Shown: piece by piece, positions 45,895-48,620 of the stretch | Position numbering within the stretch: position 1 is the first letter of the stretch | Layout: the number at the start of each line of letters is the position of its first letter | Source of the DNA: the human T2T-CHM13v2.0 reference genome, Homo sapiens | DNA length: 64,000 nucleotides | Assembly (NCBI RefSeq): GCF_009914755.1 | Contig: NC_060935.1 | Strand: one strand, 5' to 3' | Translations under genes and position numbers: made by a program | Notes under the pieces: model-generated | The model's input: only the letters and a program-made list of their open reading frames with translations | What the model was told of the DNA's origin: nothing | Database searches by the model: none

Positions 45895-46681
45895 CAAGCA
45901 TTTAAGAAAATCTTTATTCAGTTGTTAGCTAACCACTAAGCTAGAGACTTCAGTGGGCACACATAATAAACAATACATACTTTACAGAATCAGTAAAAAA
46001 CAACAAAAACAAAAATCCACAACTAAAACAAGCAGAAACGAGAAACACTGAGGATCAGAGAGAATCTGATTTCCAGCACTGCCATATTTTATTATTTAAA
46101 ATGTCCATTTTTTCCATGCAAAATTATGCGACATGGAAAAACAAGTAAGTATGGCCGACACTCAGGGATAAATGCAGTCAACAGAAACTGTCCCTGGAGA
46201 AGCCCAGATCTTGGACTTTACAGACATAGAATTTAGGTCAGTATTTTAAAAATGTTCAAAGAACAACAACAAAAAATTTAAATAGCTAAAGGAAAATATA
46301 AAAATTATGTCTCATGAAATAGAGAATATCAAGAAATATAGAAATGATTTTAAAAATAAAAATTCTGATGTTGAAAAATATAGTAGCTGAAATTAAAAGT
46401 TTACTAGAGGTAGTCAAAAGAAAGTTTGAGCAAGAAGAATTCTTGAACTTGAAGATAAGTCTGTTAAGATTATCTAGGTTGTGATTTACATGAAAAATAA
46501 TTCAAGAGGTTAGTTATTAAGCTAAACAGGGAGGCACCAGAGAAAGGCGAAGCCCAATGCAAGGAAATCCAAAAAACGATACAAGAAGTGAAGGGAAAAA
46601 TACTCAAGGAAACAGATAGCTTAAAGAAAAAAAATTAAAAATTTAAGAAATTTTGGACACACTTGTAGAAATGCAAAATGC

Positions 46682-46714
46682 ATTGTCAAAGTAACCGCTG
46701 AGCTAAAGCCAGCT
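46682..46714 (-). pseudogene. vault RNA (vtRNA1-type) 5' fragment, nt 1-33, retrocopy
   Basis: Minus strand AGCTGGCTTTAGCTCAGCGGTTACTTTGACAAT versus recalled VTRNA1-1 5' end GGCTGGCTTTAGCTCAGCGGTTACTTCGACAGT: 30/33. Two of the three differences are CpG-type transitions. Confidence 0.88.
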
Positions 46715-47026
46715 GGCCAGGTGCAGTGGCTCATGCCTGTAATCCCAGCAATTCAGGAGGCTGAGGCAGGCAGATCACAAGGTCAAGAGATCGACACCAT
46801 CCTGGCCAACATGGTGAAACCCCATCCCTACTAAAAATACAAAAATTAGCTGGGCATGGTGATGCACGCCTATAGTCCCAGCTACTCGGGAGGCTGAGGC
46901 AGGAGAATTGCTTGAACCCAGGAGGCAGAGGTTGCAGTGAGCTGAGATCATGCCTCTACAATCCAGCCTGGTGACAGAGCAAGATTCCATCTCAAAAATA
47001 AATAAATAAATAAGAAAGAATAAAAA
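46715..47026 (+). mobile_element. AluSc, co-inserted with the vault fragment
   Basis: gatcacaaggtcaagagatcgacaccatcctggccaac diagnostic. TSD aga(a/g)atgc(a/g)aaatgc (46667-46681, 47027-47041) encloses both the Alu and the vault piece. Confidence 0.93.
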
Positions 47027-48620
47027 AGAGATGCGAAATGCTCTGGAAAGTCTCAGCAATAGAATTGAACAAGTAGAAAAAAGAAATTCAGAGCTCAAAG
47101 ACAAGGTCTTCGCATTAACCCTATCCAACTAAGACAAAGGAAAAAAATAAGAAAATATGAACATTGCCTCCAAGAAGTCTGGGATTATGTTAAATGACCA
47201 AACCTAAGAATATTCAGTGTTCCTGAGGAACAAGAGGATTATAAAAGCTTGGAAAACATATTTGGGGGAATAATTGAGGAAAACTTACCCAGCTTTGCTA
47301 GAGACCTAGACATCTAAATACAAGAATCACAAAGAACACCTGGGAAATTCATCACAAAAAGATCATTGCCTAGATACATTGTCATCAGATTATCCAAAGT
47401 TAAGACGTAGGAAAGAATCTTAAGAGCTGTGACAAAAGCACCATGTAACCTATAAAGGAAAACCTATCAGATTAACAGCAGATTTCTCAGCAGAAACCCT
47501 ATATGCTAGAAGGGATTGGGGCCCTACCTTCAGCCTCCTCAAACAGAACAATTATCAGCCAAGAATTGTGTATCCAGTGAAACTAAACATCATATATGAA
47601 GGAAAGATATAGTCTTTTTCAGACAAACAAATGCCGAGAGAATTCTCCATTACCAAGCCACCACTATAAGAACTGCTAAAAAGAGCTCTAAATCTTGAAA
47701 TGAATCCCAGAAACACATCAAAACAGAACCTCTTTTAAGCATTAATCACATAGGACCTATAAAACAAAAAGACATGTTAAAAAGCAAAAGCAAAAAACAA
47801 AAACAAAGGACGCAGGCAACAAAGAGCACAATGAATGCAATGGTATCTCACATTTCAATACTAACATTAAATGTAAATGGCTTAAATGCCCCACTTAAAA
47901 GACACAAAACCACAAAATGGATAAGAACTAATCAACCAACTATCTGCTGCCTTCAGAAAACTCACCTAGCATGTAAGGACTCACATAAACTTAAAAGAGT
48001 GGAAAAAGGCATTTCATGCAAATGGACACCAAAAGCAAGCAGGGGTAGCTATTCTCATATCAGACAAAACAAACTTTAAAGCAACAGCAGTTAAAATAGA
48101 CAAAGAGGAACATTATATAGTGGTAAAAGGCCTTGTCTGACAGGAAAATATCACAACCCTACACATATATGCACCTAACACTGGAGCTCCCAGATTTATA
48201 AAACAATTACTAATAGACCTAAGAAATGAGATAGACAGTAATACAAAAATAGTGGGGAACTTCAATACTCCACTGACAGCACCAGACAGGTCATCACGAC
48301 AGGAAGTCAACAAAGAAACAATGGATTTAAACTACACCTTGGAACAAATGCCCTTAACAGATGAGAACATTTCATCCAACAACCGCAGAATATACATTCT
48401 ATTTAACAGTGCATGGAACTTGCTCCAAGATAGACCATATGATGGGCCATAAAATGAGCCTCAATAAATTTAAGAAAACTTAAATTATATCAAACACTCC
48501 ATCAGACCACAGTGGAATAAAACTGGAAATCAACTCTAAAAGGAACATTCAAAACCATGCAAATACATGGAAATTAAATAACCTGTTCCTGAATGAGCAT
48601 TGGGTCAAAAATGAAATCAA

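What the first reader, a model, noticed from the sequence alone, without database searches (positions are those of the whole stretch)
46667..47041. Vault RNA-Alu head-to-head chimera inside one target-site duplication
Seen: L1PB ORF1 is interrupted by [TSD agaaatgcaaaatgc]-[33 nt]-[full-length AluSc plus tail]-[TSD agagatgcgaaatgc], and L1 then resumes. The reverse complement of the 33 nt is AGCTGGCTTTAGCTCAGCGGTTACTTTGACAAT. Established (recalled sequence): human vtRNA1 genes begin GGCTGGCTTTAGCTCAGCGGTTACTTCG and VTRNA1-1 continues ACAGT, giving 30/33. One mismatch is decay of the internal CpG, and another is decay of the CpG created at the vault/Alu junction. Both RNAs are copied to their first nucleotide and joined 5' end to 5' end with no spacer. 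Known template-switch chimeras such as U6-L1 are co-oriented, and classical twin priming inverts part of the same RNA. Inference: twin priming in trans, in which the bottom-strand nick primed the Alu tail while the top-strand 3' end primed a different Pol III RNA internally. That would place vault RNA, or a 5' small vault fragment, in an L1 ORF2p/Alu RNP in the anthropoid germline. It also fossilises an AluSc-age vtRNA 5' sequence including its A box. I do not know of this chimera class being described, but cannot verify that.
Basis: partly seen in the sequence, partly recalled or inferred. Interest (0 to 1): 0.9.

Follow-up and report, generated by a model that had tools for sequence, protein, structure and literature searches.

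The report
Inverted vault RNA fused to Alu
A human Alu insertion carries, back to back at its front end and inside one target-site duplication, a reversed copy of the first third of a vault RNA, likely because the LINE-1 enzyme copied two different RNAs from the two cut DNA ends; this kind of chimera is known for other small RNAs joined to LINE-1, but I found no report of it for vault RNA or with Alu as the partner.

Summary
A 15-nt TSD (46667-46681 / 47027-47041) encloses 33 nt of antisense vault RNA plus a full-length AluS element; 28 of 29 paralogous L1 copies show the empty site. The best match is not VTRNA1-1 (30/33) but the chrX vault copy (31/33; both differences are CpG transitions). 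Its next 2 nt equal the end of the TSD, and the breakpoint is the best primer-pairing site on that RNA. A second case lies on chr22: vault nt 9-53, head-to-head with an L1 3' end in a 13-nt TSD. So both vault1-type 5' fragments found in the genome have this form. Best mechanism: twin priming with two RNAs (0.75). The class is not new: Doucet 2015 (U5/U1/U2/U6 with L1 or SVA) and Law & Burns 2026 (5S, tRNA halves with L1) describe it and propose the same model. Apparently unreported: vault RNA as donor and a full-length Alu as partner. Orthologues could not be tested. Verdict: new variant of a known kind, a neutral fossil, interest 0.42.

The parts
46482..46681 (+). Host L1 (L1PB-type, name recalled), 5'-truncated, ORF1 region upstream of the insertion; ends in the left TSD
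   Evidence: 88-90% identity to five of six paralogue loci, 77% to the sixth
46667..46681 (+). Left target-site duplication, 15 nt; begins at an L1-endonuclease-like site (GT/AGAAA here, mostly TT/AGAAA in paralogues)
46671..46681 (+). 3' end of the top strand, inferred primer: pairs with nt 35-43 of chrX-type vault RNA as 2+4+3 base pairs with two single-base bulges when the CpG is intact; the last 2 nt are shared by TSD and vault
   Evidence: best site on that RNA under three scoring schemes, shuffle p 0.004-0.008, scheme chosen after seeing the match
46682..46714 (-). Vault RNA 5' fragment, nt 2-34 of the Rfam-defined gene, antisense to the Alu; holds the 5' internal-promoter half only, no B-box-like motif and a T4 run follows at once, so likely not a working gene
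   Evidence: 31/33 to chrX copy L004, 30/33 to L001, 28/33 to L003, 27/33 to L002; E 5.5e-7
46715..46993 (+). Full-length AluS element starting at nt 1 (AluSc by recalled diagnostic bases)
   Evidence: two SRP-like arms; 14 of 235 non-CpG columns differ from the majority of 62 other Alus, three of them shared with 11-18 copies; 3 of 23 CpG sites intact
46994..47026 (+). A-rich tail of the Alu
47027..47041 (+). Right target-site duplication
47027..48621 (+). Host L1 resumes (rest of ORF1, start of ORF2) up to the next, unrelated Alu; an L1-type 3' end with A-rich tail lies near 51160

Best explanation
This is an Alu insertion with a reversed vault RNA 5' fragment at its front end, both inside one target-site duplication, and it likely arose in one event in which L1 ORF2p reverse-transcribed two different RNAs from the two cut DNA strands (twin priming in trans). 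Inferred steps: (1) the endonuclease nicked the bottom strand at the AGAAA site and the Alu A-tail was primed and copied to Alu nt 1; (2) the top strand was cut 15 nt downstream; (3) its 3' end paired inside the central loop of a chrX-type vault RNA at nt 35-43 and was extended to the RNA's 5' end; (4) the two cDNA ends were joined bluntly, likely by a template jump onto the other cDNA; (5) CpG decay later changed two vault bases and one TSD base. The donor was likely an ancestral chr5 vault gene whose loop still read like the chrX copy (about 0.65), or the chrX copy while it was still transcribed (about 0.3). The product is likely neutral.
For: Shown: one TSD pair only, with a single 15-mer at the empty site in 28 of 29 paralogue loci. 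The endonuclease-like site is seen in the Alu orientation and not in the vault orientation, the criterion Doucet 2015 used. There is a 2-nt overlap of TSD and chrX-type vault; the breakpoint is the top-scoring anchored pairing site on that RNA under three scoring schemes, shuffle p 0.0058, 0.0038, 0.0081, and none of the three chr5 genes can pair at that position. The breakpoint lies in the central region, reported to be open by RNase H probing (PMC7058938 passage). Recurrence: chr22:22,812,200-22,812,504 has a 13-nt TSD, vault nt 9-53 of the third chr5 gene in antisense (E 1.4e-10), an 89-nt L1 3' end and a tail, with a 4-nt TSD/vault overlap. Six solo vault2-type 5' retrocopies all overlap their TSD at the truncated 3' end, so vault RNAs are internally primed repeatedly. 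Control: an independent Alu (84.6% identical, below the best unrelated Alu at 87.5%) sits in the same 15-nt TSD of another L1 copy with one extra base and no vault piece (L025). The model is published for U5/U1/U2/U6, 5S and tRNA.
Against: No orthologue data, so joint arrival of the two parts is inferred from the TSD alone. The perfect 3' overlap is only 2 nt (1 in 16 by chance) and the bulged extension was scored with schemes chosen after seeing it; with the left TSD copy as it stands p is 0.037, and unanchored duplex folding preferred other sites on the RNA. In the chr22 case the observed breakpoint (score 10, p 0.041) is not the best site on its RNA (score 16 at nt 19). Twin priming is very rare for Alu: 1 of 5,554 insertions was 5'-inverted (PMC2912911 passage). 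The sequence cannot show which polymerase copied the vault RNA. One search listed one review, not read, and nothing that by title or abstract places vault RNA in an ORF2p complex.
Confidence: 0.75

Rival explanations
1. One insertion event, but the vault piece was added by a host repair polymerase (for example polymerase theta, recalled as able to copy RNA) that extended the top-strand end on vault RNA while the 5' junction of an ordinary Alu insertion was being closed.
For: It predicts the same anatomy and short overlap. Alu almost never shows 5' inversion (1 of 5,554) yet 12.4% of full-length Alus carry 5' extra bases (PMC2912911). The chrX vault copy itself sits at a repair-like rearrangement with an overlap at its 3' end.
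Against: Copying runs cleanly to the RNA's 5' end with no scrambled or repeated patches. Six solo vault2-type retrocopies with TSDs show that the retrotransposition machinery primes vault RNAs internally. The class recurs with L1 and SVA partners.
Confidence: 0.13
2. A pre-formed chimeric RNA: a source Alu lay downstream of an older antisense vault fragment and was transcribed from further upstream, so both were copied as one 5' transduction.
For: The blunt, overlap-free junction at Alu nt 1 is compatible, and a source can be lost from the population.
Against: No other copy of the junction exists in this genome. No flank of a source locus lies between TSD and vault piece. The breakpoint pairs with this target's own end.
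Confidence: 0.05
3. Two independent insertions at the same spot: a tailless vault retrocopy and an Alu.
For: The site attracts insertions: L025 has an independent Alu in the same 15-mer. Solo tailless vault2-type copies exist.
Against: A second insertion should leave a third copy of the 15-mer or a duplicate of the Alu start; only two copies exist. The second case (chr22), found without selection for structure, also abuts a retroelement 5' end head-to-head; a rough estimate from recalled repeat counts puts that near 0.2% by chance.
Confidence: 0.05
4. The 33 nt are untemplated or host-derived filler that resembles vault RNA by chance.
For: Rfam did not call it.
Against: E 5.5e-7 genome-wide; 0 control hits against 6; best non-vault match 20/33.
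Confidence: 0.01

Closest known systems
Inverted snRNA/retrotransposon chimeras formed by twin priming (Doucet et al. 2015, PMC4476161; U5, U1, U2, U6 with L1 or SVA; part of their Group IV)
   Same: 3'-truncated small RNA, opposite orientation, 5' of the partner, one TSD, endonuclease site only in the partner's orientation, complementarity at the top-strand junction, truncation in a loop; truncation at nt 36-48 for U5 against nt 34-36 here.
   Different: Donor is a vault RNA, not an snRNA. Partner is a full-length Alu; the seven twin-priming cases in section 6 have L1 or SVA. The SVA case means a trans-mobilised partner already has precedent.
Antisense 5S rRNA/L1 and tRNA-half/L1 chimeras (Law & Burns 2026, PMC13174262)
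   Same: Pol III RNA 5' part (5S nt 1-45, tRNA nt 1-37) joined head-to-head, TSD present, twin priming proposed.
   Different: Their catalogue is anchored on L1, so an Alu-only product is outside it. 'vault' has 0 hits in the main text and in 6 supplementary files. The one chr22 row found is at 43.3 Mb, not the chr22 case here. They favour pre-cleaved halves; here pairing past the breakpoint suggests a longer template.
Tailless retropseudogenes (Schmitz 2004, recalled and cited in PMC2912911; Noll 2015, PMC5322556)
   Same: 3'-truncated small-RNA copy without a tail, primed internally through a short overlap with the target.
   Different: Those are solo and have their own TSD; this one shares a TSD with a tailed partner in the opposite orientation. 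'vault' has 0 hits in the main text of Noll 2015 and Kojima 2010.
Vault RNA retrocopies (VTRNA2-2P, VTRNA3-1P; RetroSeeker, PMC11727581)
   Same: Vault RNA as a template for reverse transcription in the human lineage.
   Different: RetroSeeker's example has TSDs and a poly(A) tail and is not described as a chimera.
U6/L1 and U6/Alu template-switch or ligation chimeras
   Same: Small Pol III RNA at the 5' end of a retroelement inside one TSD.
   Different: Co-oriented and usually full-length; neither ligation nor switching between two sense RNAs gives a head-to-head join.

Membership tests
Twin-priming small-RNA chimeras (Doucet 2015) | Small RNA and partner lie inside one TSD | tested here: met
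   15-nt TSD; empty site in 28 of 29 paralogues
Twin-priming small-RNA chimeras (Doucet 2015) | Small RNA is 3'-truncated and in opposite orientation, 5' of the partner | tested here: met
   vault nt 2-34 of 102, minus strand
Twin-priming small-RNA chimeras (Doucet 2015) | Cleavage site fits the L1 endonuclease motif only in the partner's orientation | tested here: met
   TTGT/AGAAA here (T at the last two positions in 20 and 21 of 29 paralogues) against CAGA/GCATT in vault orientation
Twin-priming small-RNA chimeras (Doucet 2015) | Complementarity between the small RNA and the top-strand end | tested here: met
   2 nt exact plus bulged extension, best site on the chrX-type RNA, p 0.004-0.008, post hoc scoring
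Twin-priming small-RNA chimeras (Doucet 2015) | Partner is a 5'-truncated L1 (or SVA) and donor is an snRNA | tested here: not met
   Partner is a full-length Alu and donor a vault RNA; the chr22 case does have a truncated L1 partner. Hence filed as a variant
Antisense Pol III RNA/L1 chimeras (Law & Burns 2026) | Both parts arrive at the same time in a multi-species alignment | not testable with these tools
   No primate genomes are held (no relatives)
Tailless retropseudogenes | Solo 3'-truncated copy flanked by its own TSD | tested here: not met
   The TSD also encloses the Alu; met by six vault2-type copies elsewhere
U6-type template-switch or ligation chimeras | Same orientation as the partner | tested here: not met
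   Opposite orientation
Vault RNA gene (Rfam RF00006) | Full stem-loop with both internal promoter boxes and a terminator after them | tested here: not met
   Not among 11 genome matches (49 candidates scored) nor called; no B-box-like motif, T4 run 3 nt after the fragment (motif recalled)
AluSc subfamily | Diagnostic bases against the Dfam consensus | not testable with these tools
   No Dfam here; three non-majority bases are shared with 11-18 of 62 other Alus, in line with recalled AluSc diagnostics

The most novel reading that the evidence does not exclude
Alu 5' ends hide an uncatalogued class of inverted Pol III RNA fragments (vault, tRNA, 5S, Y RNA), made by ORF2p priming two non-L1 RNAs at one cut, possibly without ORF1p. 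Vault1 RNAs enter the genome mainly this way (2 of 2 fragments found). Together with the chrX copy, this fragment preserves the loop of a vault RNA gene that was expressed in the anthropoid germ line and has since been lost or rewritten.
Probability: 0.35. Interest if true: 0.65.

Novelty: new variant of a known kind. Interest (0 to 1): 0.42.

Why it matters
It extends two-RNA twin priming to an Alu-only product. Alu retrotransposition is reported not to need ORF1p (as cited in PMC4476161), and Alu almost never shows 5' inversion (PMC2912911), so the case bears on whether ORF2p itself primes from the second-strand end and whether that needs L1 RNA or ORF1p. It adds vault RNA to the donor list with two independent human examples that L1-anchored, RepeatMasker-based catalogues would likely miss. 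It also gives a rough date for expression of a chrX-type vault sequence in the germ line or early embryo at AluS age, and suggests that VTRNA3-1P is a captured RNA copy, not a duplicated gene. It is a fossil with no sign of function.

Tried and rejected
Rfam scan of the region did not call Vault. VTRNA1-1 as donor: rejected, it differs at nt 33 and cannot pair at nt 35. L1 or local origin of the 33 nt: rejected, best 20/33. L025 as a duplicate of this locus: rejected, Alu identity 84.6% and L1 identity 90%, no higher than unrelated copies. More vault1 fragments: a degenerate 21-nt pattern gave 62 hits against 20 for the control; 30 came with loci, of which 6 are the known places and 24 scored at most 35 against 65 and 77 for the two real fragments; the other 32 two-mismatch hits were not examined. 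BLAST with the chrX copy and two chr5 genes found no further 5' fragment; the first chr5 gene was not used as a query, and these counts are lower bounds. chrX copy as a segmental duplicate of a chr5 gene: rejected, flank scores 19-22 against 644-719 among chr5 genes, no TSD, no tail. Unanchored duplex folding did not pick the observed site. A survey of 5S fragments next to Alu 5' ends was begun and dropped, so the frequency of Alu-partner chimeras with other RNAs stays open. Earlier scan notes were not available. My first notebook entry named the chr22 donor wrongly; the last entry corrects it.

Full report
What is there. The window shows a 5'-truncated L1 whose ORF1 region is interrupted at 46682. 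Six paralogue loci align to 46482-46681 and again from 47027, and a frame at 47433-47609 matches the ORF1p domain PF17490. Direct repeats at 46667-46681 and 47027-47041 are 13 of 15 identical. I searched the genome with the right flank; 40 of 2,651 candidates were scored, and the 29 best other than the window itself came with loci. In 28 of these 29 the 15-mer occurs once, with host sequence on both sides; in one (L025) an Alu tail precedes it. The duplication is therefore exactly 15 nt. Its two differences are a CpG site and one private change. The site reads mostly TT/AGAAA in paralogues and GT/AGAAA here, an endonuclease-like motif in the Alu orientation; in the vault orientation it is not. 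Between the repeats lie 33 nt, an Alu from nt 1 (46715-46993) and an A-rich tail. The Alu differs from the majority of 62 other Alus at 14 of 235 non-CpG columns, three of which are shared with 11-18 copies, and keeps 3 of 23 CpG sites. That fits AluS age; the names AluSc and L1PB and the age of roughly 35 million years are recalled.

The 33 nt are vault RNA. A search with Rfam RF00006 gave 11 places (49 candidates scored). Against these, the reverse complement of the insert scores 31/33 with the chrX copy (L004), and 30, 28 and 27 of 33 with the first, second and third chr5 genes. By position the chr5 genes are VTRNA1-1, -2 and -3 and the chrX copy is VTRNA3-1P (order recalled; chromosomes as in passages of PMC7058938 and PMC8287541). 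Both differences from the chrX copy are CpG transitions, one internal and one at the CpG that a blunt vault/Alu join would create. The match is not chance: E 5.5e-7 genome-wide, 6 pattern hits against 0 for the control, and at most 20/33 in L1 paralogues or elsewhere in the window. The piece covers nt 2-34 of the Rfam-defined gene. No B-box-like motif follows and a T4 run comes 3 nt later, so it is unlikely to be a gene.

Priming signature. Nt 35-36 of the chrX-type RNA equal the last two bases of the TSD. With the CpG-intact 15-mer taken from paralogue L028, the top-strand end pairs with nt 35-43 as 2+4+3 base pairs with two bulges. This is the best anchored site on the RNA under three scoring schemes, with shuffle p of 0.0058, 0.0038 and 0.0081; the three chr5 genes cannot pair at that position. 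Against this: the schemes were chosen after seeing the match, the left TSD copy as it stands gives p 0.037, and unanchored duplex folding prefers other sites. Pairing beyond the breakpoint argues for a template longer than 33 nt, so not a processed small vault RNA.

A second case. The same pattern search found chr22:22,812,445. In L1 orientation it reads: 13-nt TSD, antisense vault nt 9-53, an 89-nt L1 3' end (90% identical to another L1 end), an AT-rich tail, TSD. The donor is the third chr5 gene (E 1.4e-10). Four bases are shared by TSD and vault, and the endonuclease-like site is again in the partner's orientation only. Its breakpoint is not the best pairing site on its RNA. Searches with two patterns and three gene queries found no other vault1-type 5' fragment, with the limits given under Tried and rejected. 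So 2 of 2 found are head-to-head chimeras. Vault2-type RNA behaves differently: six solo 5' copies (ending at nt 48-59), each with its own TSD overlapping the truncated end and none abutting an Alu.

Control. L025 is another L1 copy with an independent Alu in the same 15-nt duplication, one extra base and no vault piece. The position of the second cut therefore does not depend on vault pairing; the vault RNA was likely caught by an end that would have formed anyway.

The donor. The chrX copy shares no flanks with the chr5 genes and has no TSD or tail. It lies in an LTR-like repeat (40 of 124 candidates scored; several occur as pairs 4.5-6.5 kb apart) at a junction where the repeat resumes inverted, and its last bases overlap that inverted segment. 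It looks like a captured RNA copy. The simplest reading is that the chrX copy and this fragment both record an ancestral chr5 vault gene. The chrX copy being active for a time cannot be excluded: it has a TATA-like word about 24 nt upstream that two repeat paralogues lack. It is described as a silent pseudogene today.

Mechanism. Shown: one TSD, opposite orientations, endonuclease motif on the Alu side, overlap at the vault side, recurrence. Inferred: the bottom-strand nick primes the Alu tail; the top-strand end primes vault RNA internally; the two cDNA ends join bluntly, likely by a template jump; ORF2p does both. I give this 0.75, a host repair polymerase doing the vault step 0.13, a pre-formed transcript 0.05, two separate insertions 0.05, chance 0.01.

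What is known. Doucet 2015 (PMC4476161; passages and section 6 read, supplement not read) reports seven 3'-truncated, inverted U5/U1/U2/U6 copies with L1 or SVA in one TSD and draws this model; its Alu cases are two U6atac copies, one taken as template switching and one as two events. Law & Burns 2026 (PMC13174262; abstract, passages, sections 11 and 18, term searches of 6 supplementary files) adds antisense 5S and tRNA halves on L1 and proposes twin priming; vault is not mentioned. Kojima 2010 (PMC2912911; passages and section 9) found 1 inverted Alu in 5,554. Noll 2015 (PMC5322556; term search only) has no mention of vault. RetroSeeker (PMC11727581; passages and supplement term search) reports a tailed vault retrocopy. 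Searches for a vault chimera or an Alu-partner inverted chimera listed nothing that describes one by title or abstract; most listed papers were not opened. The library lacks most subscription papers (Buzdin 2003, Garcia-Perez 2007, Schmitz 2004, Stadler 2009 were not seen), and unseen supplementary tables could list this locus.

Verdict. What remains new, as far as these searches reach, is vault RNA as donor (two human cases), a full-length Alu as partner, and the link to a chrX-type vault sequence. New variant of a known kind; interest 0.42.

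Noticed in passing
L017:1256-1560 (G000:C22:22812200-22812504): Second vault chimera: antisense nt 9-53 of the third chr5 vault gene head-to-head with an 89-nt L1 3' end inside a 13-nt TSD; not among the chr22 rows of the Law & Burns tables searched.
   Followed up: yes
L083:1501-1615 (G000:C10:31580820-31580933): Vault2-type copy reading nt 43-101 then nt 1-55/56, joined exactly 3' end to 5' end, 114 nt, inside a 13-nt TSD. Longer than one unit, so it may be a copy of a circular or dimeric vtRNA2-1, or a template jump to a second molecule.
   Followed up: partly
L081, L082, L084, L086, L088, L089 (each near 1501-1560): Six solo tailless 5' retrocopies of vtRNA2-type RNA ending at nt 48-59, each in an 11-16 nt TSD that overlaps the truncated end, most often at a CAT word.
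   Followed up: partly
L004:1201-1800 (G000:C23:52748248-52748847): The chrX vault copy sits at a deletion/inversion junction in an LTR-like repeat, with its 3' end overlapping the inverted segment and a local inverted duplication after it; no TSD, tail or chr5 flank. Suggests RNA capture rather than gene duplication.
   Followed up: partly
L025 (G000:C9 near 104724177-104724500): Independent Alu in the same 15-nt target of another L1 copy, with one extra base at its 5' junction; L033 has another Alu about 60 nt upstream of the same site. Points to an insertion hot spot in this L1 family.
   Followed up: yes
L001:1600-1645 (G000:C5:141236762-141236807): A tandem partial copy of the vault 3' half directly follows the first chr5 gene.
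   Followed up: no
L007, L008, L009, L010, L011: Further old full-length vault-like copies, most followed by A-rich runs, on chr17, chr2 and chr16; three score over the Rfam cut-off.
   Followed up: no
window 46200-46481 and from about 51180: The host L1 appears nested in an older, more decayed L1-like element that resumes after its tail (family judged from recall).
   Followed up: no
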